Origin: a virus
Lineage: Duplodnaviria > Heunggongvirae > Uroviricota > Caudoviricetes
Length of the DNA stretch: 23,534 nucleotides
Strand: one strand, 5' to 3'
IMG/VR virus record: IMGVR_UViG_2563366895_000003
Span: 1 to 23,534 of that record
Positions 2,795-23,534 of the stretch are shown here, in pieces. Below the pieces are notes generated by a model. That model was not told the origin of the DNA, did not search any database, and worked only from the letters and a program-made list of their open reading frames with translations. Within the stretch, counting starts at the first letter, position 1. Each line of letters starts with the position of its first letter. The translations under genes were made by a program, and so were the position numbers.

Positions 2795-5387
2795 TTGCAT
2801 ATTCCTTAGCCCAGCGGGGCAGTGATAACGTCTTAATAGCTGGCCATTCATCGGTATTGAGGCAGTCAGCCAGGGTTCGCAGATTGCGGTGATATTCCAG
2901 CTGACCTGCCAGTTTTGCTTCTTCGCCCATCATGAAAATTTCAACCGGATAACGTCCGCATTCAATAGTTGTGCTGGCAACCAGAAAAACGAAAGTTGGC
3001 TGCACTCCAAACTGTGCTTCATAACCGTCACTGTAGAATGCATCCTGAACGTGATAGCGGTAGTCGTAATAAGCGGTTTTGAATCGTTGAATATCCGCCG
3101 TAGTTTTCACGTCCATGATCCAGTGAAATTCAGGGATAATTTTGTCCGGACGGCACCGACACAAAATTCCTGTTTCAGGATCTTCCCAGTAAATTGATGA
3201 TTCAGCGTGTCCGGCGCTTTCAACAAGCCATTGCCCCAGCGGCAAAGCCATAACGCTTTGATACATGAGTTCAATTTTCCGGCCTTCTTCCGCAGTGATA
3301 ACCGTTTTTCCTGTGCTTGCGCATTCCATCAGAAACGCTTTCTCCTCTTCTTTTCCGGCGTTTGTACGGCGGTTAAATTCAGGTGCTACGATAAAGCGGT
3401 TACTGAATTCTTCCGGTTCAAGTACCCGGCAGTGGAAAGCGGTTCCTAAATCGAGCGTTTTTGTCTTTGTGGTGTCCACGGGGGCATTTTTACGCCACAA
3501 ATACAATGCCGGAGTATCAGCAATGTCATCGAGCTGAGACTTACTGACACCGGGACCCGCGTGGTAATTCTCATTCGAAATTCCGTAATAAATACCTGGC
3601 TCTATGTCTTCTACGATTACGGGATCTGCGACTTTGCCAGTTTCATCACTGCAATCGCGATGCGGATCGCTGCCAGCATTCTCATTGTGCGGATGTTCAG
3701 CGCCTTCCATTTCCTCCGGATCATTTTCCTTAGCTTCAACCTGACTCTCTTCATCGAATGTTTCCTGGTATGTTGCGTCGCCCATCACCGCACCACAGTC
3801 AGGGCAGTTATCCCCGCCAGTCTGGCCGCAGGCATTGCAGGCTATTTCCGGTTCCTGTTGCACTACTGGCTCAGGTTGATTCATATCCGGGCTGGTTTTT
3901 TCCGTTTCTGGCTGGTTCTGGTACACAGAATCGCGAGTCTGGATCCCCTTTACCCATTTCGGATCGTTCGGGTCGCTAATTCCGTCAACAAATTCACCAC
4001 GTGATGCAGCAAGCAATTTATTGGCATCGACAGGATTTTTTGATGGAATGTTTTTCCGGGCTTCATGGAGTTCTGCCCGCAGTTCCTGATATTTCGCATC
4101 AACAGAATTTACCTGTGACTGAGCATCCAGCGGCTGCGTGTCCTGATGATGTTCAGTTGCGTCCGGTTCCATTGTTTCAGTCTCTCCCTGTTCAACTGCC
4201 GTTGTTCCAGATGGTTGCGGTTTTTCTTCATCATCCTGTTTTCCTTCTTCTGTTACTCGCTGCGGCATCGGGGCAGAGGAGCGACCGCAGGCAATATCCA
4301 CGATTTCCGGATCAGGGTTGGCATGATCGGTTTCAGTCAGTACTTTGTTCAGATATTCAGTGACGTGCGCGGGGATGATCTCGATCCCAATTGGTGCTTC
4401 TTTTACGGAAGCAACCACGATGGCGCGGGAATAATCCAGCCCGCCAGGCATGGTGATGAATTTGTCGCGGAAAACAGAAAAGGGCGGTTTATTTTCAGCG
4501 ATAATTTCCTCAATGCGTTTAGCGTGTGCCGGATGAATGTTATAGATGTCCAGATCCATTGAACGGGCCAGTACGCCAGTGGCTACGTCGCGCGCCAGTG
4601 ACGTCAGATCGTGTACGAAACCTTTGCCGCGATCGGTGAGGTTTCCGCCGCCAGCATTAGCACCGGAAGCCGTGCGAGTGATGTGTGAAACACGATTACC
4701 CTTCATCCACTCTTTTGTCAGCAGTCCTCGATCGGTGTAGTCAGCGTTCAGGTATGCTTCGAAAAAAGCAGTTATCAGTCCCAGGTTTGAATTACCAGGA
4801 TTAGGGAAAACTTTGTCAGTGTCACGAACCAGTTTGTGGAGATCGCGAATTTCCAGCGGGTCGAGCAGGCTGGTTTTGTGGGAAACAGCCAGGGCAGTAA
4901 CAGCCGGTAGTTCTTCAGCCCGAGCAATGTGTAATGCCTGGAGTCCGTCGCGTGAAACGTGCGTTACCGGTTTTTCGCTGCCGTGTTGAGCAAGCCAACG
5001 AATGGGCAGTTCCTGGCCAGAAATTGGGAGTAGCATATTCTCCTCAATCTCAGTCATGTCTTCGCCGTTGACGTTGGTATTGCCTTGATAGTGAGCGTTG
5101 TCTGGTGCTGCTCCCGGTTTTAGTTCCCATGTCATGGAGTCTTTGCTGAGTTGATAGCGTTCACTCCAGGTAAAATCGATCTCACCTTCAGCGGGCAGGT
5201 CATTAACGACAGGAAAATTCGTGGCAACAGCTTTAAAATAGCTGCTCAGTTTTTTACCTGACTTAACGATCAGGTAGTCCAGAGTGGCACAGGTCGATTC
5301 AAAATCGTCGCTTGCCCACAGGACGACGTCAGGTTCACCGGATGATTTTTTCGCTTTCCGTAACAGGAAGAGTGGTTTTGTGCTCAT
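2787..5387 (-). CDS. recE: Exodeoxyribonuclease VIII RecE, 866 aa
   Basis: 866-aa ORF. Acidic, repeat-poor N-terminal two thirds and a C-terminal nuclease-type region; GAGG Shine-Dalgarno before the ATG; immediately upstream of recT on the same strand. Confidence 0.92.
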
Positions 5388-16671: not shown

Positions 16672-17259
16672 ATGAGCGAGAAATTAAAGATAGTCTATCG
16701 CCCATTACAAGAATTGTCACCGTATGCGCACAACGCCAGGACGCACAGTACTGAGCAGGTGGCACAACTGGTAGAAAGTATTAAGCAATTCGGCTGGACT
16801 AATCCGGTGCTGATTGACGAAAAGGGCGAAATTATTGCGGGTCACGGTCGTGTTATGGCGGCTGAAATGCTCAAAATGGATTCTGTTCCGGTCATTGTTC
16901 TGTCTGGCCTGACGGATGAGCAGAAAAAGGCGTACCGCTTGGCAGATAATCGCCTACCGATGAATGCTGGCTGGGATGAAGATCTGTTGCGGATGGAGCT
17001 GTCGGTCCTAATCAATGCTGATTTTGATGTCTCCCTGACAGGCTTCGGCCCGACAGAAATTGATGAACTGTTGACGGATGTTTTGCCCGGTACAGGAAAT
17101 AAGGAGGAGCCGTATACGACGAAAATTGATACGCCTGTTTATGAGCCGTCGGGCGGTAAACCGGATATCAGTGAACTGTACGACGATACGAAAACTCAGG
17201 AGCTGATCAGCCGGATACGTTCGGCGTCCCTTGAACCCGCCAGTAAAAGATCGCGTTAA
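16672..17259 (+). CDS. ParB-like nuclease-domain protein (YnaK-like), 195 aa
   Basis: ParB N-terminal-domain-type motifs (GHGRVMAA ... KKAYRLADN) with an acidic C-terminal tail; lies immediately upstream of the terminase remnant. Confidence 0.65.
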   Translation: MSEKLKIVYRPLQELSPYAHNARTHSTEQVAQLVESIKQFGWTNPVLIDEKGEIIAGHGRVMAAEMLKMDSVPVIVLSGLTDEQKKAYRLADNRLPMNAGWDEDLLRMELSVLINADFDVSLTGFGPTEIDELLTDVLPGTGNKEEPYTTKIDTPVYEPSGGKPDISELYDDTKTQELISRIRSASLEPASKRSR

Positions 17260-17488
17260 CTCAATGAATGCAATGTTCTGCAATGCCAATGGTGAGCGTC
17301 GCTATAAAGTTAATGTGAAGCGTTGTCCGGTATATGCCGAATCACTGGAGCAACAGGTCTGGGATGATAAGGGGGAGCCTGATAAAAAATCTGGCAATGA
17401 TCACCCGAATGATGCCGGAGGTTATTTCATCGTTAAGCAATTCCCTATTGTCAAACCGACCGGAAGAGTCACATCACTTCGGATTTAA
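17231..17488 (+). pseudogene. Terminase large-subunit C-terminal remnant (YdaY-like), ~85 codons
   Basis: Short ORF overlapping the 3' end of the ParB-like gene and ending 3 nt before the putative portal start; call is by position and a weak C-terminal resemblance (GNDHPNDAGGYF). Confidence 0.4.
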
Positions 17489-17490
17489 TT

Positions 17491-18897
17491 ATGGCTGATA
17501 TATCAACACCCAACCTCGACTATAACGATATGCTGGAAGCGTGGGATATTAACGACGCATTGATGGGCGGTACGCTTGAAATGCGCAGGCAGGGGGAAAA
17601 TTATCTCCCCAAATGGCCTAATGAAGATGAAGACGCTTATAAAAAACGCCTGTCTGTGGCTACGCTACTTCCTGTGTATGAAGAAAGCATCAAACAAAAT
17701 ATTGGGCGCATATTTGCAGAGCCGACAGTATTGAGTGAGGAAACGCCGGAAAAAATCAGGGAATATGCAGAAAATATCGACATGGAGGGGAGCCGACTGG
17801 ATGTGTGGGCGCAGCAATTTTTCAGTCTCGCATTTCAGTATGGTGTGGCACATGCGCTGGTGGACTATCCACGAACGGATATGAACGAGATTCGGACAAA
17901 AGCCGATGAAAACGCGGCCGGTGGTCGCCCGTACGTTACGATGCTGAATCCACGCCAGGTTATTGGATGGAAATCGAAAGTTGAAAAAGGGAAAGTTGTT
18001 CTCACTGATTTGCGTATAAAAGAGGTCATCATTATTGATGGTGATGATTTCGGGCAGAAGAAGGTGGAGCAGATCCGCCATATTATGCCCCGTCGAGTAG
18101 AAATTTATCGACGCAGCGAAGGTACTAATGGCGAATCTGTCTGGATGCTTCATGAGTCATGGAATACCAGCCGTGATGATATTCCTCTGGTAACACTGTA
18201 TACGAAGAAAACAGGGTTTATGCGTGGTACACCGCCATTGCTTAATCTTGGCTTGCTGAATATCAAGCACTGGCAAAGCCAGAGCGAGCAGGACAATATT
18301 CTTCATGTTGCCCGCGTTCCATTGCTGGTGGCCTACGGGCTGGACAGGAATGAAGAACTGACGGTTGGTGCATCCACCGCTACGATTTTTGAGGACAGAA
18401 CAAAAAATGGCCTCGAATATGTTGAACATAGTGGCGCAGCGATAGAATCTGGCGAAACATCACTTGAGAAGCTGGAAAATCAGATGCGTCATGCCGGCGC
18501 TAAACTTCTGCGGGCTGAAAATACATCCACCAAATCTGTTGATCAGACTAATGAAGAGCGGATGCAGGAACACTCGCCGCTTTATACAATGGCGAACTCC
18601 CTCGAAGATGCCCTCGATAATATTCTCCAGATAATGGCGGAATGGAGCGGAGAGAGTTGCGGTGGCAATGTGGATGTGCGCACTGAACTGGATGTATCTG
18701 CCCAGGTGTTTGACTCATCCTCCGCGCTGGCTGTTCAGTCATTGCGTCAGGGCGGTGATATACGTCAGATTGATGCGGTTCGGGTGTTGCAGGCGTTGAA
18801 ATTTATCGATCAGGATTCCCGTCCAGAGGAAGTGATCGATGAATTAAAAAATCAGAGTGTAATGCTGATGGAAATCAATGATGCAAACCGTGAATGA
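17491..18897 (+). CDS. Putative phage portal protein (positional call), 468 aa
   Basis: Large ORF directly after the terminase remnant and overlapping the next ORF; size and acidic C-terminus are compatible with a portal. No motif-level confirmation. Confidence 0.5.
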   Translation: MADISTPNLDYNDMLEAWDINDALMGGTLEMRRQGENYLPKWPNEDEDAYKKRLSVATLLPVYEESIKQNIGRIFAEPTVLSEETPEKIREYAENIDMEGSRLDVWAQQFFSLAFQYGVAHALVDYPRTDMNEIRTKADENAAGGRPYVTMLNPRQVIGWKSKVEKGKVVLTDLRIKEVIIIDGDDFGQKKVEQIRHIMPRRVEIYRRSEGTNGESVWMLHESWNTSRDDIPLVTLYTKKTGFMRGTPPLLNLGLLNIKHWQSQSEQDNILHVARVPLLVAYGLDRNEELTVGASTATIFEDRTKNGLEYVEHSGAAIESGETSLEKLENQMRHAGAKLLRAENTSTKSVDQTNEERMQEHSPLYTMANSLEDALDNILQIMAEWSGESCGGNVDVRTELDVSAQVFDSSSALAVQSLRQGGDIRQIDAVRVLQALKFIDQDSRPEEVIDELKNQSVMLMEINDANRE

Positions 18898-19813
18898 ACG
18901 GCTGCGTGATGAATCAATTGCTCATGCAGTCTGGATATCCCGCTATAGCACTGGTGTGGCTGCCAGAATGGTGAAGATACTGAATGACAGCGATGCGGAG
19001 CTTACAGCTCGCCTGCTGGTAGCACTGGACAGCCTCGATCCTGGTAGTTTTACCGTTACGCGCCTGGAGTCACTTCTGGCGAGTGTCAGAGAGGTTAACG
19101 GGGCTAAAGCGCAGGCGCTCACTATCAACAGGAATGAGGTTAACTCAACCGTTGATTTAACCCTTACAAAGCAATCAGGGACTGGCAATCGTTTTGTTTT
19201 ACAGAACTCAGGTAATGCAGAACTACCGTTTTCTGTCAGGGTGTGGGGTTCCAGTACTCGACAAAACGTTTTTGAGGTTGGAACGTCTGCTGCGTATCTG
19301 TTTTATGCTCAAAAAACATCTTCAGGTCAGCTGTTTGATGTAAACGGTGCTATTAACTGTACAACACTGAATCAGTTATCAGACCGCGAGCTGAAAGACA
19401 ATATTCAGATTATCAGTGACGCAACCGAAGCTATCCGTAAAATGAACGGGTACACCTACACACTTAAGGAAAACGGACTACCTTACGCTGGTGTTATTGC
19501 ACAGGAAGCAATGGAGGCAATACCGGAAGCGGTAGGCTCATTCACTCATTACGGTAAAGAGTTGCAGGGACCAACGGTTGACGGCAATGAATTACGTGAA
19601 GAAACACGTTATCTGAATGTTGACTACGCCGCCGTGACGGGGTTACTTGTTCAGGTCGCCCGTGAAACAGATGATCGCGTTACCGCGCTGGAAGAGGAAA
19701 ATACAACGTTACGTGAAAATCTGGCAACAGCAGGCACCCGGATCACCACTCTGGAAAATCAGGTAAGCGAACTGGTTGCACTTGTCCGGCAGTTAACAGG
19801 AAGCGAACATTGA
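18878..19813 (+). CDS. Chimeric ORF ending in a tail-fibre/tailspike C-terminal intramolecular chaperone (Peptidase S74-like) domain, 311 aa
   Basis: C-terminal half carries LSDRELKDNI ... NGYTYTLKENGLPYAGVIAQEAMEAIPEAV, which I recall as the self-cleaving chaperone motif of fibre proteins. The N-terminal ~90 aa look unrelated to a fibre shaft. Confidence 0.65.
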   Translation: MMQTVNERLRDESIAHAVWISRYSTGVAARMVKILNDSDAELTARLLVALDSLDPGSFTVTRLESLLASVREVNGAKAQALTINRNEVNSTVDLTLTKQSGTGNRFVLQNSGNAELPFSVRVWGSSTRQNVFEVGTSAAYLFYAQKTSSGQLFDVNGAINCTTLNQLSDRELKDNIQIISDATEAIRKMNGYTYTLKENGLPYAGVIAQEAMEAIPEAVGSFTHYGKELQGPTVDGNELREETRYLNVDYAAVTGLLVQVARETDDRVTALEEENTTLRENLATAGTRITTLENQVSELVALVRQLTGSEH

Positions 19814-19852
19814 TATCCTTCAAGCCCTGAAGGAGGCTGTTCCTGGTACGTT

Positions 19853-19996
19853 CAGACTGTTGTTGAGCTGGAGATCGCAACGGAGGAAGAAACCTTGTTG
19901 CTGGAAGCCTGGAAAAAGTATCGGGTGTTGCTGAACCGTGTTGATACATCAACTGCACCTGATATTGAGTGGCCTGCTGTCCCTGTTATGGAGTAA
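19853..19996 (+). pseudogene. Tail fibre assembly protein (Tfa) C-terminal remnant, ~47 codons
   Basis: Reads ...[43 protein letters not shown], in the same frame as and directly after the TGA of the preceding ORF. Resembles Tfa C-termini as I recall them; no start codon of its own. Confidence 0.5.
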
Positions 19997-20011
19997 TCGT
20001 TTTGAGATACG

Positions 20012-20047
20012 CCGCATACACGTTGTATGCAATAACGTGCTGCGGCT
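20012..20047. repeat. Left copy of a 36-bp imperfect direct repeat that is also a palindromic stem-loop
   Basis: CCGCATACACGTTGTATGCAATAACGTGCTGCGGCT; 32 of 36 positions identical to the copy at 22482-22517. Internal stems GCCGCA/TGCGGC and CACGTT/AACGTG. Confidence 0.6.
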
Positions 20048-20099
20048 TGGTAAATTTTAGCTAGTTTCAGCAGGAGACATAAAAAACTTCAATATAAGA

Positions 20100-20888
20100 T
20101 TAAGCATCACGTATTGCCAATCTGATTTTTGACTGATACCAATTGGGGCCTTCTGCAATTATTTCTTCCTCAACATGCATGATGGGATGCATTTCAATTT
20201 CAGAGTTTTTGACTTTCAGATCTAGTCCATGTTTTTTTGAAATTTGTAAAACTTCATTTTTGAAATCCTTATCTGCGAAAGGTGAAATCCTTATTTCTTC
20301 CAACAGATTATTAAGAGATACAGGGACTAGTTTTCCCTTTACAGGTGGAGTGTTAAAGGTATTCTCTTGAAAAATAGCTCTAAACTCTTTTTCGTATTCG
20401 AAAGATGGTCTCTTGTTAAAGAATACATCTGATTCTGGATTGTATTGTTTTATCCAGAAATTTTTGACGTATTTTACGTGTTTTAATTGTAGTTTGTTTA
20501 GATTATTATTTTCAAGTTGGCTTTGGAGGTTTTTTTTCTTTGATTTTATGACAACGCCTTTAGCGGGGTTTTTACAATACAGCTTCCACATAGCTTCAGA
20601 TTCATGTTCGTTACAATGCCAGCAACTTATATATGTCCTCTCGCTTATTTCCTTAAGTGTCTTTAAATTGAATGCCATGAAAGGATCTAAGTCCATGCCG
20701 GCACCATAAGTAGCGCATAGTTTTTCCTGTGTCTCAATGAATTTTTTATAGCCAGTATGTCCCCAAGCAAATTCACCTTCGAACGGATCTTCAAAATTTT
20801 TTGCTGAGCAAAAAAATAAAGCATTTTGTTCGAGTAACATAGAGAATTTCTCTATGTCAAGGTATCGCCATATATACTCAGTGTGCAT
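20100..20888 (-). CDS. DUF2971-family protein, 262 aa, very AT-rich
   Basis: AAGGAG Shine-Dalgarno 5 nt before the ATG at 20888. N-terminal IWRYLDIEKFSMLLEQNALFFCSAKNFEDPFEGEF, then ISCWHCNEHESEAMWKLYC and LKHVKYV, matching the DUF2971 pattern as I recall it. Confidence 0.7.
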   Translation of the reverse strand: MHTEYIWRYLDIEKFSMLLEQNALFFCSAKNFEDPFEGEFAWGHTGYKKFIETQEKLCATYGAGMDLDPFMAFNLKTLKEISERTYISCWHCNEHESEAMWKLYCKNPAKGVVIKSKKKNLQSQLENNNLNKLQLKHVKYVKNFWIKQYNPESDVFFNKRPSFEYEKEFRAIFQENTFNTPPVKGKLVPVSLNNLLEEIRISPFADKDFKNEVLQISKKHGLDLKVKNSEIEMHPIMHVEEEIIAEGPNWYQSKIRLAIRDA

Positions 20889-21017
20889 GATAGCTCCTTG
20901 CAATATAACTATTTCTATCTGTTCATTTGTACTTAAAAAGGATTGAGTAGCCTGAACAGTTCTATCCGTAAATATACCAGATAGAAGAGTTGTACAATAA
21001 CAAATCCTCCGTATAAG

Positions 21018-21056
21018 AACCAGCCATAATAGTCTGGTTCTTAAGGTTTTTTTTGT
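21018..21056 (+). other. Stem-loop GAACCAG-N10-CTGGTTC followed by a plus-strand T8 run, between the two cassette genes
   Basis: Read directly. Terminator-like for plus-strand (antisense) transcription only; on the coding strand it is preceded by an A-run, not followed by a U-run. Confidence 0.4.
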
Positions 21057-21101
21057 TCTAGGGGGGGTTAACCTACGATTCGTCCCCATATCGACGATAA
21101 A

Positions 21102-22304
21102 TCAGGCCTGTACCAACGCTTCTGTTTCTGTGAGTGAAATCTGATAGCGTTTTACTGCCTCAGCAAAGGCGTGCGCGGCATCTGCATTTGATACCATATA
21201 TTCTTCAGTTACCCCTGTTTGAGAATGGAAAGTAATATTTCCATAAATGCAAATAGGGATTTGGTAGTTATCTTTAAAACGACGGTCTGGTGAGCCATTC
21301 TTATTCGTTTTCGCCCATGTATAACCATCTATGCGTGAGTCACTGGGAACACCTTCTTCCTCATGGAATCTTAGATATTCTGAACTAATTTGTAATTCGC
21401 GTAAATCAATCAGAGCGAATGCTCCATCAGCTCGTGGTATGACTGCAACTCCAGGATAAAGCAAAATATCGTCTCCATTCACATTTTCAAACCTCATCGC
21501 ACGCCCTGTAAATTGAATGAGATCCGTTGAACTAAAATCAAAGGTAACTGGGTGACGATTAACAGACCGGGTTGCTAATGTTCTTTCAGCAAACTGGTCT
21601 GTAGCTTTATCTGCAGTAATATCCCATTTTTTGACACTCGATTTTAACATATCAAATGCATGGACCATCGCTGCATATGCGCGCTGTGAAGCATCACTGC
21701 TCTCGAATGTTATGGCTATTTTTGTGCTGTCTTCCCATGAAACTAGGCGAGATATCTCAGCTTGGGTTAGGGGGAGTAGTGTCTCAAGTTCTGCGATGCG
21801 TCGTTTGTAAAACCAACGGAATAGACTTGATTTGCGTCGAGCCAACTCGCTTTTTTGTTTTGATTCTTCGGCAAGAGCCTCTTGAAGATCTGCTTTTATT
21901 TCTGCTCTTTGTTCTCGTGCTTTAGCAATCAAATCTCGTAAAGGTAAAAGGGAGGTACTTGTAAGGACTTCTACCGAAGCGCTGGATATTTCATTCATGC
22001 CAGCTACAGGCATATATATTTTAGCGTTCGATGGTGTATTTTCTGGAGATGACCCAGACCCCAAATGAGGTTCTGTAGGGGCTGGATTTAATGGATTGGT
22101 AACTGAGTATCCATCATCATAGGGCAAGGTAGGTGTAGTATAAGATAAGCCTGTGCCCGGTAATCCGACAGTTGCTCTAACCCCTTTTTTACCAACATTG
22201 ACAGTTGCGCCAGGCACGCCAATGCTTGCACTTATTCCACGCTTGCCAATGTTGAGTCGAACGCCAGGAAATAGAGTAAAGGTTTGTCTGAAACGAAGAG
22301 ACAT
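21102..22304 (-). CDS. DUF4236 N-terminal-domain protein with coiled-coil middle and unassigned C-terminal domain, 400 aa
   Basis: N-terminal FTLFPGVRLNIGKRGISASIGVPGATVNVGKKGVRATVGLPGTGLSYTT is the Gly/basic DUF4236-type repeat pattern as I recall it; a coiled-coil-like stretch follows; C-terminal ~200 aa unrecognised. Confidence 0.7.
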   Translation of the reverse strand: MSLRFRQTFTLFPGVRLNIGKRGISASIGVPGATVNVGKKGVRATVGLPGTGLSYTTPTLPYDDGYSVTNPLNPAPTEPHLGSGSSPENTPSNAKIYMPVAGMNEISSASVEVLTSTSLLPLRDLIAKAREQRAEIKADLQEALAEESKQKSELARRKSSLFRWFYKRRIAELETLLPLTQAEISRLVSWEDSTKIAITFESSDASQRAYAAMVHAFDMLKSSVKKWDITADKATDQFAERTLATRSVNRHPVTFDFSSTDLIQFTGRAMRFENVNGDDILLYPGVAVIPRADGAFALIDLRELQISSEYLRFHEEEGVPSDSRIDGYTWAKTNKNGSPDRRFKDNYQIPICIYGNITFHSQTGVTEEYMVSNADAAHAFAEAVKRYQISLTETEALVQA

Positions 22305-22430
22305 AAAGTTATCCCTATGTAGTTTTGTACACCAAAGTTCGAAATGTTTTTATATGAATATTGAGCTGATTCGTAAGATTATTCCTAGCTCATCTTCATT
22401 CCGCCATGATACAACGGTTTGCTTGCAGGT

Positions 22431-22468
22431 GAAGAAAAACGAAAAAGCCCAATCATGATTGGTGGGCT
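22431..22468 (-). terminator. Rho-independent terminator of the sit operon
   Basis: On the minus strand: stem AGCCCA ... TGGGCT around a palindromic ATCATGAT centre, followed by TTTTTCGTTTTTC. Confidence 0.55.
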
Positions 22469-22481
22469 GGTGGAGTTGAAA

Positions 22482-22517
22482 CCGCAGACACGTCATATGC
22501 AAAAACGTGCTGCGGCT
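22482..22517. repeat. Right copy of the 36-bp imperfect direct repeat/stem-loop
   Basis: CCGCAGACACGTCATATGCAAAAACGTGCTGCGGCT; the four differences from the left copy fall in the loop or bulge positions, leaving both stems intact. Confidence 0.6.
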
Positions 22518-22676
22518 AACTGGTGAACTTTCGATAGTGCGGGTATTGAATGATTTCTAGGCGTTATCGATTTTACGTATTTTTTGCATGATAGAATTCG
22601 TACCTCCTCCCAACGACCTTCCATGGCTTTCCGGACTTCTGTAGGCCGGCGGACGATGTTGTCCTCGGATGTTGTG

Positions 22677-23534
22677 CTAATTGGGTGATAACAGATCCTG
22701 TGTATGGGAGTTTCCCTTTGTGCGTGCGTTGATGCTGGTAACGGTAAACGTCATGATGAACACGACCGCGAATAAGACGACAATCGTCGGAGCTGGTGCG
22801 CTGTCGATAAAAAAGGACAGCCAGACACCAGTCATTGACACTATTACCGATATGCCAGTCGCCAGTAGGAGCGCAATATGAAAGCGTTGTGTCAGGAGTA
22901 CCGCAATGGCGCCAGGCGCAATGAGCAGAGAAATGGAGAGAATGATACCTACCGCTTTCAGCGTCGCCACAATGGTCAGAGAGACCATGCACAGCAGCCC
23001 ATAATGCAGCCATCTCGTATGCAAACCGCTTACCTGCGCCTGTTGATAATCAAAGCTGAACAGCAAAAAATCCCGCCATTTTACGCTAATAACAAGTGTA
23101 ACCAGCCCGGCAATAATCATCGTCTGGATTATATCGCCGATGGTTATCCCGAGCATGTCGCCGAAAAGAATATGGTCAAGATGTACGTCTGGTTTGACCG
23201 CAATATACAAGATCAAACCTGCGGCAAACATGCCAGAAAAAACAATCCCCATCACTGTATCTTGCTTGATTCGGCTGTTGTCTTTCAGGTATCCCGTCGC
23301 CACCGCGCAGAATACTCCGGCGACGAATGCCCCTGTAGCCAAAGGTAACCCCAGAATCCAGGCAAGCACGATGCCAGGAAAAACCGCATGACTCATCGCG
23401 TCACCCATCAGTGCCCAACCTTTCAGGACCAGAAAGACCGACAGCAGCGCACAGGGTATGGAAACTACCAGTGAAATCAGCAGTGCGTGACTCATAAAGG
23501 TGAACTGCAGTGGCTCCAGTAATAATGCCATCAT
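22677..23534 (-). CDS. sitD: ABC-3 family Mn/Fe transporter permease, last gene of a sit-type operon (SitD-like), 285 aa; start coincides with the window edge
   Basis: Polytopic hydrophobic protein with the ZnuB/MntB/SitD-like pattern; followed downstream by a terminator. The MM start is at the last bases of the window, so the N-terminus could extend off-window. Confidence 0.8.
   Translation of the reverse strand: MMALLLEPLQFTFMSHALLISLVVSIPCALLSVFLVLKGWALMGDAMSHAVFPGIVLAWILGLPLATGAFVAGVFCAVATGYLKDNSRIKQDTVMGIVFSGMFAAGLILYIAVKPDVHLDHILFGDMLGITIGDIIQTMIIAGLVTLVISVKWRDFLLFSFDYQQAQVSGLHTRWLHYGLLCMVSLTIVATLKAVGIILSISLLIAPGAIAVLLTQRFHIALLLATGISVIVSMTGVWLSFFIDSAPAPTIVVLFAVVFIMTFTVTSINARTKGNSHTQDLLSPN

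What the first reader, a model, noticed from the sequence alone, without database searches (positions are those of the whole stretch)
20012..22517. Two-gene DUF4236 + DUF2971 cassette at the prophage tail-fibre end: candidate undescribed accessory or defence module
A 400-aa DUF4236-N-domain protein and a 262-aa DUF2971 protein sit on the same strand between a tail-fibre-assembly remnant and the sit operon terminator. Neither belongs to phage morphogenesis or to the transporter operon. The region just beyond stf-tfa in lambdoid prophages is a known site for accessory cargo, including anti-phage systems. I do not recognise this pair as a named system. Weaknesses: the genes are 213 bp apart with a hairpin between them, and their base composition differs (DUF2971 gene much more AT-rich), so they may be two independent acquisitions.
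Basis: partly seen in the sequence, partly recalled or inferred. Interest (0 to 1): 0.8.

Follow-up and report, generated by a model that had tools for sequence, protein, structure and literature searches.

The report
Two unrelated prophage cargo genes
Two neighbouring genes at the end of a decayed E. coli prophage are real, but they are two independent passenger genes, not a two-gene system: one is a DarT-like ADP-ribosyltransferase from a family already listed as a single-gene anti-phage candidate, and the other belongs to a widespread protein family of unknown function that stands alone in other bacteria.

Summary
Window 21102-22304 (-) encodes a 400-aa protein with an N-terminal DUF4236 domain. 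Window 20100-20888 (-) encodes a 262-aa DUF2971 protein. The gap between them is 213 nt and contains a hairpin.

The interpretation as one undescribed two-gene module is not supported.
- The pair occurs only as one near-identical ~2.8-kb DNA segment in 122 of 5,426 complete E. coli genomes.
- Outside that lineage, every locus examined for either family lacks the other. This covers 34 full-length DUF4236-family loci and 33 DUF2971 loci in viral contigs, plus the genomic places looked up in Klebsiella, Serratia, Phaeobacter, Paracoccus, Bacteroidota, Enterobacter and Pseudomonas.
- The DUF4236 gene carries its own terminator hairpin, which is conserved in Klebsiella. Homology with Klebsiella ends just after it.
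- DUF2971 is frameshifted in about a quarter of E. coli carriers, while DUF4236 stays intact.

The DUF2971 protein models confidently (pLDDT 92) as a DarT-like ADP-ribosyltransferase with a conserved ExE motif. It matches PADLOC's untested single-gene candidate PDC-S31 and shares its Pfam domain with the validated lactococcal system Aristaios.

The DUF4236 family protein has no structural or profile match to anything characterised.

Verdict: juxtaposed morons. One is a new member of a known candidate defence kind. Interest is low to moderate.

The parts
21102..22304 (-). Gene for a 400-aa DUF4236-family protein. Domains: beta-rich N-domain aa 7-61, disordered linker 64-98, long helical hairpin 117-193 with a conserved FRWFYKRR tip, and an alpha/beta C-domain 196-400.
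   Evidence: ORF. Pfam DUF4236 E 3e-21. phrog_17982 over the full length. Full-length homologues at 65-93% identity in Proteobacteria and 30-36% in Bacteroidota and a cyanophage. AF2 model pLDDT 81, C-domain about 90. No PADLOC or NCBIfam hit.
22305..22481 (-). Upstream region of the DUF4236 gene, with a promoter-like site (TTCACC-16-TATCAT, 22433-22406) and an AGGGA ribosome-binding site.
   Evidence: Consensus scan, which found no more sites than shuffles give, and the sequence itself. Function is inferred, not shown.
21015..21042 (.). Hairpin AAGAACCAG-N10-CTGGTTCTT between the two genes. It has an A8 run on one side and a T-rich stretch on the other, so it looks like a bidirectional intrinsic terminator that ends the DUF4236 transcription unit.
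   Evidence: Sequence. RNA fold. The hairpin is conserved downstream of DUF4236 orthologues in Klebsiella L003 and IMG/VR L028, where a T7 run follows it. Homology with those loci ends just after it.
20100..20888 (-). Gene for a 262-aa DUF2971 protein, a DarT-like ADP-ribosyltransferase fold. Invariant residues in the alignment: D34, E37, C89, W90, M100, W101, Y140, K159, E166, E168 (the ExE motif) and R170.
20530..20537 (-). A8 homopolymer inside the DUF2971 gene. Loss of one A gives a stop at codon 130 in a subset of E. coli carriers.
   Evidence: Alignment of L022, L026 and L027 with the window. In one search, 11 of 40 evenly spaced rows span 787 or 788 nt instead of 789.
20012..20047 (.). 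Left copy of the 36-nt hairpin direct repeat, immediately downstream of the tfa remnant and of the DUF2971 stop codon.
   Evidence: Conserved in L021 and L022.
22482..22517 (.). Right copy of the 36-nt hairpin direct repeat, upstream of the DUF4236 gene.
   Evidence: RNA fold z-score -4.8. Conserved in L021 and L022. A single copy sits at the empty tfa-sitD junction in 395 genomes. The element is present in 5,111 of 5,426 genomes.
19862..19996 (+). Tail-fibre-assembly (tfa) gene remnant that always accompanies the module in E. coli.
   Evidence: RefSeq annotation of the identical record. The same remnant is present in L021, L022 and L023.

Best explanation
The segment holds two independent prophage passenger genes (morons). 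They became neighbours in one E. coli prophage lineage and have since been carried together by recombination between lambdoid prophages.

**Gene 1, DUF2971 (20100-20888).** It encodes a stand-alone DarT-like ADP-ribosyltransferase. I infer that it works as a single-gene, abortive-infection-type anti-phage protein. It would stay inactive in the uninfected lysogen. On infection it would use NAD+ to ADP-ribosylate a nucleic acid, or an essential replication or transcription component, through its ExE catalytic motif, and so block phage gene expression. Shown here: the fold, the conserved motif, the solo occurrence at prophage cargo sites, and the match to a defence-candidate profile. Inferred: the enzyme activity, the target, the trigger and the defence phenotype.

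**Gene 2, DUF4236 family (21102-22304).** It is a separate transcription unit with its own terminator. It encodes a soluble protein with a beta N-domain, a helical hairpin and an alpha/beta C-domain, from a large and strongly conserved family that has no fixed gene partner. Its function is unknown. My best guess, with low confidence, is a lysogen-expressed accessory protein that acts on a conserved host or phage component on its own.
For: **Independence of the two genes**
- In E. coli both genes occur in the same 122 of 5,426 genomes. They are at >=99% (DUF4236) and >=95% (DUF2971) DNA identity, so this is one DNA lineage.
- DUF4236 orthologues stand alone in four settings. In Klebsiella (93% identity) the gene is convergent with an S74 tail-fibre gene at a prophage end. 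In Serratia (87%) it lies between lptG and a beta-lactamase gene. It is also solo in Phaeobacter and Paracoccus (67-68%) and in Bacteroidota.
- DUF2971 homologues also stand alone. They lie after ogr at a P2-like prophage end in Enterobacter soli (81%), in an island (82%), and in Pseudomonas (54%).
- HMM census of IMG/VR loci: of 38 full-length DUF4236-family loci, only the 4 with the E. coli allele have DUF2971. Of 37 DUF2971 loci, only those same 4 have a DUF4236 protein.
- No neighbour family is shared across most DUF2971 loci.
- The hairpin terminator after the DUF4236 gene is conserved in Klebsiella and IMG/VR, and homology ends after it.
- A frameshift in an A8 run inactivates DUF2971 in L022, L026 and L027 while DUF4236 is intact.

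**DUF2971 as an ADP-ribosyltransferase and defence candidate**
- AF2 model pLDDT 92.
- Invariant E166-x-E168.
- PADLOC PDC-S31 E 2.5e-20.
- Diverse DUF2971 alleles (24-81% identity) share at least five neighbouring ORF families with L103, whose neighbours are gpR/gpS and gpV/gpW/gpJ of a P2-like phage.
- Literature: DUF2971 is predicted to be a DarT/AbiGi-like ADP-ribosyltransferase (PMC12522546). Aristaios, a DUF2971 protein, is a validated single-gene Abi-like system that blocks phage transcription (PMC11381338, PMC13064643).
Against: - In E. coli the two genes are always together and share one insertion/deletion unit bounded by 36-nt direct repeats. A lineage-specific functional coupling therefore cannot be excluded by sequence alone.
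- Third-position GC is similar (30% against 32%), so composition does not argue for different donors.
- PDC-S31 is an untested candidate (bioRxiv 10.1101/2024.01.29.577857), and the best profile is matched only over positions 67-235 of 245.
- Similarity to DarT is structural only. There is no sequence-level hit to any solved structure.
- No relative was found on lactococcal plasmids, so kinship with Aristaios beyond the shared Pfam domain is unshown.
- Loss of DUF2971 by frameshift in about a quarter of carriers could mean it is costly or dispensable.
- Nothing here shows enzyme activity or any phenotype.
- For DUF4236 there is no positive functional evidence at all.
Confidence: 0.6

Rival explanations
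1. The two genes form a functional two-gene module in this E. coli lineage. For example, the DUF4236 protein could be a sensor, regulator or antitoxin for the DUF2971 ADP-ribosyltransferase effector, newly assembled from two solo parts.
For: - Strict co-occurrence in 122 E. coli genomes at three or more chromosomal sites.
- Same strand, 213 nt apart.
- Both lie in one insertion/deletion unit between 36-nt repeats, relative to 395 empty sites.
- DarT-type toxins normally need a partner, and toxin decay with the partner retained is a pattern seen in toxin-antitoxin loci.
Against: - The co-occurrence is one near-identical DNA segment, so it counts as one event.
- DUF2971 proteins 81-82% identical to this one stand alone.
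- DUF4236 orthologues at 87-93% identity stand alone.
- There is no adjacency in 67 other viral loci.
- A conserved terminator lies between the genes.
- The DUF4236 protein has no macrodomain or other known antitoxin fold.
Confidence: 0.08
2. The DUF2971 protein is not an anti-phage protein. It is instead an ADP-ribosylating toxin or effector with another role, such as inter-bacterial competition, a host-directed effector, or a phage-encoded modifier of host machinery that benefits the phage.
For: - The fold is an ADP-ribosyltransferase fold.
- PMC12522546 predicts about 18% of DUF2971 proteins to be secreted effectors.
- Phages encode ADP-ribosyltransferases that modify host proteins (general knowledge, for example T4 Alt, ModA and ModB).
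- The gene sits in phage genomes.
Against: - No signal peptide or transmembrane segment (highest 19-residue hydropathy 0.73).
- No secretion-system or immunity gene nearby.
- In the window it is transcribed against the late operon at a moron site.
- It matches profiles built from genes embedded in defence systems.
- The only tested family member is anti-phage (PMC11381338).
Confidence: 0.15
3. The DUF4236-family protein is itself a stand-alone anti-phage or superinfection-exclusion protein of a kind not yet described, independent of DUF2971.
For: - It sits at the terminal moron position of lambdoid prophages, transcribed opposite to the tail genes.
- It has its own promoter-like site and its own terminator.
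- It is strongly conserved (65-93% identity across Gamma- and Alphaproteobacteria).
- The family has 3,528 clusters at 50% identity.
- Some members are fused to an IetA-like AAA+ ATPase.
Against: - No hit in PADLOC.
- Many members lie in ordinary chromosomal contexts with no defence neighbours, for example Serratia, Paracoccus and Pontibacter.
- Such high conservation is unusual for defence genes.
- No informative fold match.
Confidence: 0.2
4. One or both genes are decaying, functionless remnants of the degraded Rac prophage.
For: - The surrounding prophage is heavily deleted: terminase, ParB-like and tfa pseudogenes, and a portal gene abutting a tail-fibre fragment.
- DUF2971 is frameshifted in about a quarter of carriers.
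Against: - Both ORFs are intact in the window.
- DUF4236 is >=99% identical in all 122 genomes, and 121 of them cover at least 80% of the gene.
- Both proteins are well conserved over long evolutionary distances, and both give confident structure models.
Confidence: 0.05

Closest known systems
DarT, the ADP-ribosyltransferase toxin of the DarTG toxin-antitoxin and defence system
   Different: Only 8-14% identity in the structural alignments. There is no Pfam or PDB sequence-level match to DarT. No DarG macrodomain antitoxin lies next to the gene, here or in homologous loci. The model has large helical inserts (aa 43-83). The substrate is unknown.
Aristaios, a lactococcal plasmid single-gene Abi-like system
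   Same: A protein with the same Pfam domain (DUF2971/PF11185). It acts as a single gene, has a predicted ADP-ribosyltransferase fold, and is carried on a mobile element (PMC11381338). It affects phage transcription (PMC13064643).
   Different: Aristaios is 316 aa and from a Gram-positive plasmid. The window protein is 262 aa and from an enterobacterial prophage. No lactococcal relative was found by tblastn in the plasmid collection, so they are distant members of one Pfam family at best. No phenotype is known for the E. coli protein.
PADLOC PDC-S31, a single-gene phage defence candidate
   Same: The window protein and its homologues hit all four PDC-S31 profiles, the best at E 2.5e-20.
   Different: PDC systems were predicted by 'guilt by embedding' and are untested (bioRxiv 10.1101/2024.01.29.577857). 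The best profile is matched over positions 67-235 of 245 only. The window gene is not embedded in a known defence system.
Lambdoid and P2-type prophage morons (promoter-gene-terminator cargo such as lambda lom and bor, or P2 old, tin and fun)
   Same: Each gene is a separate unit at a known cargo position: beyond stf-tfa in lambdoid prophages, and at the gpS-gpV site or after ogr in P2-like phages. In the window both are transcribed against the late operon. Both are AT-rich at third codon positions.
   Different: No sequence relationship to any named moron. Function is not established. That these sites are cargo sites comes from my own knowledge of phage biology, not from a test here.
phrog_17982 / Pfam DUF4236 proteins
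   Same: The 400-aa protein is a full-length member of phrog_17982 (E 3e-194) and carries the 55-aa DUF4236 domain.
   Different: Both are uncharacterised families. The DUF4236 domain alone is also fused to unrelated domains (FtsK_gamma, WYL, zinc ribbons, TM2 with SHOCT), so the domain name says nothing about the function of the 200-aa C-domain.

Membership tests
Conserved two-gene system (DUF4236 + DUF2971) | The two families are neighbours in many unrelated genomes. | tested here: not met
   Adjacency is seen only in the near-identical E. coli segment. It was absent from 34 other full-length DUF4236-family loci and 33 other DUF2971 loci in IMG/VR, and from the genomic places looked up for eleven homologues.
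Conserved two-gene system (DUF4236 + DUF2971) | Co-transcription or operon structure. | tested here: inconclusive
   The genes are 213 nt apart with a hairpin terminator at 21015-21042. In Klebsiella that hairpin ends the DUF4236 unit. The T-run is degraded in the window, so read-through cannot be excluded without RNA data.
DarTG toxin-antitoxin system | DarT-type ADP-ribosyltransferase fold. | tested here: met
DarTG toxin-antitoxin system | Adjacent DarG macrodomain antitoxin. | tested here: not met
   The neighbours are the DUF4236 protein and a tfa remnant, with no Macro domain. Homologues are solo.
DarTG toxin-antitoxin system | Sequence membership in the DarT family. | tested here: not met
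   Pfam reports only DUF2971. The profile of A2 finds no solved-structure sequence at E <= 10.
DarTG toxin-antitoxin system | NAD+-dependent ADP-ribosylation of ssDNA bases. | not testable with these tools
   This needs biochemistry.
Aristaios (DUF2971 single-gene Abi-like system) | DUF2971/PF11185 domain covering the protein. | tested here: met
   Pfam 30.7 bits against a cut-off of 22, at aa 100-170. The whole protein aligns with DUF2971-annotated homologues.
Aristaios (DUF2971 single-gene Abi-like system) | Acts as a single gene. | tested here: inconclusive
   Homologues have no conserved partner, which fits a single-gene function. Sufficiency needs an experiment.
Aristaios (DUF2971 single-gene Abi-like system) | Abortive-infection phenotype and a block of phage transcription. 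| not testable with these tools
   The phenotype is reported only for the lactococcal protein (PMC11381338, PMC13064643).
PADLOC PDC-S31 | Match to the PDC-S31 profiles. | tested here: met
   PDLC04993 E 2.5e-20, plus three further PDC-S31 profiles. PADLOC's own coverage cut-offs were not applied.
PADLOC PDC-S31 | Embedded in or next to known defence systems. | tested here: not met
   The window neighbours are prophage remnants and the sit operon. Only one homologous locus (L018) lies near genes with Mrr_cat, HD and N6-adenine methylase-type Pfam hits.
Pfam DUF4236 / phrog_17982 | N-terminal 55-aa glycine-rich beta domain, and for the PHROG family the full-length architecture. | tested here: met
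   E 3e-21 over profile positions 1-55. phrog_17982 positions 1-390 of 390.

The most novel reading that the evidence does not exclude
The 400-aa DUF4236-family protein is the founding example of an uncharacterised, very widespread stand-alone mobile-element protein. The family has about 3,500 clusters at 50% identity and is spread across Proteobacteria, Bacteroidota and cyanophages. Some members are fused to AAA+ ATPase, SH3 or peptidoglycan-binding domains. On this reading it has a new anti-phage or superinfection-exclusion activity. A less likely version is that in E. coli it has been recruited as the regulatory partner of the DarT-like DUF2971 enzyme.
Probability: 0.15. Interest if true: 0.65.

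Novelty: new member of a known kind. Interest (0 to 1): 0.3.

Why it matters
If the DUF2971 gene protects E. coli, it would be the first enterobacterial, prophage-borne example of the Aristaios/PDC-S31 type of single-protein ADP-ribosyltransferase defence. It would also be a partner-less counterpart to DarTG, which raises the question of how a DarT-like enzyme is kept harmless without an antitoxin.

The analysis also shows that strict adjacency within one species can be a single inherited DNA segment and not a system. That matters for guilt-by-association screens.

The DUF4236 family is large, well conserved and entirely uncharacterised, so it is a reasonable target for a function screen. Nothing here yet says what it does.

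Tried and rejected

2. **A conserved partner for the DUF4236 family.** A 214-aa Ion_trans_2 channel follows the gene in two Kapabacteria-type loci. The two channel proteins are 98% identical, and the partner is absent in Pontibacter, Proteobacteria and the phage loci. I rejected it as a general partner. An AAA gene lies upstream in Phaeobacter and AAA fusions exist, but neither is present in the window.

3. **The 36-nt flanking direct repeats as ends of a small mobile element** (an integron attC site or IS200/IS605-type hairpins). Rejected: the hairpin is a common prophage element in 5,111 of 5,426 genomes, one copy remains at empty sites, and the module has no recombinase. Recombination between prophages at a shared boundary sequence explains it.

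4. **Base composition as evidence for separate donors.** Weakened: third-position GC is 30% against 32%.

6. **Rfam scan of 19600-22800.** It found only a sub-threshold IS009 hit outside the module.

7. **Literature.** DUF4236 appears in one paper, only as an annotation in a Salmonella prophage remnant. 'PDC-S31' appears in none.

8. **Scans not run.** I did not run the expensive genome contigs or metagenome scans, because the viral-contig census and the locus look-ups already answered the co-occurrence question.
Full report
**What is there**

The window is the Rac prophage region of E. coli. It is 100% identical to strain WL164. It runs from intR through a heavily deleted late region to sitD.

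On the minus strand lie two intact ORFs.

The first is 21102-22304 and encodes 400 aa.
- It has Pfam DUF4236 at residues 3-56 (E 3e-21).
- It matches phrog_17982 over its full length (E 3e-194).
- It has no hit in PADLOC or NCBIfam.

The second is 20100-20888 and encodes 262 aa.
- It has Pfam DUF2971 at 30.7 bits against a cut-off of 22.
- It hits all four PADLOC PDC-S31 profiles, the best at E 2.5e-20.
- The 262-aa start is preceded by AAGGAG and matches the length of homologues.
- RefSeq's 246-aa start would remove the conserved WRY strand.

The gap between the genes is 213 nt. It holds a 9-bp stem hairpin at 21015-21042, flanked by an A8 run and a T-rich stretch.

**Is it a pair?**

In 5,426 complete E. 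coli genomes each gene is found in 122 genomes, always together. DUF4236 is at >=99% and DUF2971 at >=95% DNA identity.

The same ~2.8-kb segment, always with the same tfa remnant, sits at three or more chromosomal sites:
- the Rac/sit junction, seen only in WL164;
- an island at thrW;
- a lambdoid prophage at yejM/proL.

This is one DNA lineage moved by recombination, so it counts as one observation of adjacency.

Outside that lineage the two families are not neighbours.

DUF4236 orthologues stand alone:
- Klebsiella (93% identity): convergent with an S74 tail-fibre gene at the end of a prophage next to smpB.
- Serratia (87%): between lptG and a beta-lactamase gene.
- Phaeobacter and Paracoccus (67-68%) and Bacteroidota: also solo.

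DUF2971 homologues stand alone:
- Enterobacter soli (81% identity): right after ogr at the end of a P2-like prophage.
- An 82% homologue: in an island beside an integrase fragment.
- Pseudomonas (54%): solo.

I built HMMs of both families and scanned all fetched loci.
- Of 38 full-length DUF4236-family loci from IMG/VR, only the 4 carrying the E. coli allele have a DUF2971 gene.
- Of 37 DUF2971 loci, only the same 4 have any DUF4236 protein.
- No other neighbour family is shared across most DUF2971 loci.

**Transcription units**

The hairpin after the DUF4236 stop codon is conserved in Klebsiella (L003) and IMG/VR (L028). There a T7 run follows it, which makes it a canonical terminator. Nucleotide homology with the window ends just after it. 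The DUF4236 gene with its terminator is therefore a self-contained unit across genera, and the DUF2971 gene lies beyond it in unrelated DNA.

In L022, L026 and L027 the DUF2971 gene has lost one A from an A8 run (window 20530-20537), which gives a stop at codon 130. The DUF4236 gene in those loci is intact. In one search, 11 of 40 evenly spaced rows span 787 or 788 nt, so roughly a quarter of carriers have the lesion.

GC is 43% against 34%, but third-position GC is 30% against 32%.

**The flanking repeats**

The finding's limits coincide with two 36-nt imperfect direct repeats (89% identity), each of which folds as a hairpin. Both copies travel with the module.

In 395 genomes a single copy lies between the tfa remnant and sitD. 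That is an 'empty site' relative to which the module is a clean 2,470-bp insertion or deletion. That copy carries a compensatory C-G to A-T change in its stem.

The hairpin is present in 5,111 of 5,426 genomes, with a median of two copies. So it is a general lambdoid-prophage element downstream of tfa and not the sit terminator. I read the duplication as a mosaic junction produced by recombination between prophages. It is not the signature of a mobile element, and it is not evidence of functional linkage.

**The DUF2971 protein**

The alignment shows invariant D34, E37, C89, W90, M100, W101, Y140, K159, E166, E168 and R170. This includes the E-x-E motif, which a published survey reports for DUF2971 as motif III of a DarT/AbiGi-like ADP-ribosyltransferase family (PMC12522546).

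The lactococcal single-gene Abi-like system Aristaios is a DUF2971 protein (PMC11381338). It is reported to affect phage transcription (PMC13064643).

PDC-S31 is one of 145 untested candidates derived from genes embedded in known defence systems (bioRxiv 10.1101/2024.01.29.577857).

DUF2971 alleles of 24-81% identity share at least five neighbouring ORF families with L103, whose neighbours are gpR/gpS and gpV/gpW/gpJ of a P2-like phage. This is the pattern expected of exchangeable cargo.

There is no macrodomain or other candidate antitoxin nearby, and no transmembrane or signal segment.

My mechanistic reading is a partner-less, infection-activated, NAD+-dependent ADP-ribosyltransferase that aborts infection. 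This is inference from the fold, the motif, the context and the family precedent. Activity, target and trigger are untested.

**The DUF4236-family protein**

The full-length architecture is strikingly conserved: 65-93% identity from Enterobacterales to Rhodobacterales, and 30-36% in Bacteroidota and a Microcystis phage.

The model (pLDDT 81) has four parts:
- a beta N-domain;
- a disordered linker;
- a long helical hairpin whose tip carries the conserved FRWFYKRR motif;
- a well-predicted alpha/beta C-domain.

The C-domain profile finds 3,528 clusters at 50% identity. Some members add a C-terminal AAA+ ATPase (IetA-like), SH3 domains or a PG_binding_1 domain. The N-domain alone is fused in phages to FtsK_gamma, WYL, zinc ribbons or TM2 with SHOCT.

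No solved structure or curated family matches the protein, and no conserved partner gene exists. Its function remains open. The moron-like position, with its own promoter-like site and its own terminator, suggests a lysogen-expressed accessory role.

**Verdict**

The genes are real and the description is accurate. The 'two-gene cassette' is a juxtaposition of two independent cargo genes.

One is a new enterobacterial member of an already catalogued candidate or validated kind: a DUF2971 ADP-ribosyltransferase, as in PDC-S31 and Aristaios. The other is an uncharacterised solo gene.

A lineage-specific functional coupling is not excluded, but nothing supports it beyond adjacency. I put it at about 8%.

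Noticed in passing
window 20012-20047 and 22482-22517; L023 about 4165-4200: A 36-nt imperfect-palindrome hairpin downstream of tfa genes is present in 5,111 of 5,426 E. coli genomes, with a median of 2 and up to 8 copies. It brackets the module as direct repeats. One copy in an empty-site strain carries a compensatory C-G to A-T stem change. Its role (terminator, recombination boundary or protein site) is unknown.
   Followed up: partly
window 20530-20537: An A8 run inside the DUF2971 gene is the site of a -1 frameshift (stop at codon 130) in roughly a quarter of E. coli carriers. This could be slippage-prone inactivation of a costly gene, or simple decay.
   Followed up: partly
window 20841-20888: The RefSeq annotation of the identical record starts the DUF2971 protein at Met17 (246 aa). 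That removes the conserved N-terminal WRY strand. Homologues and the AAGGAG ribosome-binding site support the 262-aa start.
   Followed up: yes
window 19753-19953 (+): Sub-threshold Rfam hit to IS009 (RF02111; 95.6 bits against a gathering score of 117; E 6.7e-22). It covers the end of the tail-fibre gene and the tfa remnant.
   Followed up: no
window 16672-19996: The late region of this Rac prophage is collapsed. A truncated ParB-like gene and a terminase fragment are followed by an intact DUF4055 portal gene (17491-18897). That gene overlaps a 311-aa protein that keeps only the C-terminal S74 chaperone part of a tail fibre (18878-19813), and a 135-nt tfa remnant follows. This implies a large deletion that joined the head genes to the tail-fibre end.
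   Followed up: partly
L137 5001-6906; L140 5001-6905: In two different genomic contexts of Kapabacteria-type bacteria, the DUF4236-family gene is followed on the same strand by a 214-aa Ion_trans_2 (K+ channel-like) gene. The two channel proteins are 98% identical. The pairing is not seen in the other lineages examined.
   Followed up: partly
proteins P0334, P0399, P0411, P0432 (AAA+); P0371, P0327 (SH3); P0353 (PG_binding_1): Some members of the DUF4236-family core carry C-terminal extensions: an IetA-like AAA+ ATPase with AAA_lid_6, bacterial SH3 domains, or a peptidoglycan-binding domain. One has a TM2 insert. This hints at modular effector or localisation domains on a common core.
   Followed up: partly
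L103 3514-4302; L127-L136; L014-L017 6001-6789: DUF2971 genes of very different sequence (24-81% identity) lie in P2-like phages. L103 and seven or eight further loci share neighbouring structural genes (gpR/gpS and gpV/gpW/gpJ in L103). In Enterobacter soli the gene lies after ogr at the prophage end.
   Followed up: partly
L002 4998-6140 (Microcystis phage Mea-Yong924-1): The cyanophage homologue of the DUF4236-family protein is annotated 22 codons too short, so its DUF4236 N-domain is missed. It also has a hydrophobic stretch (YLIEILSYIMVFGFFW) at the tip of the helical hairpin, where the E. coli protein has FRWFYKRR.
   Followed up: no
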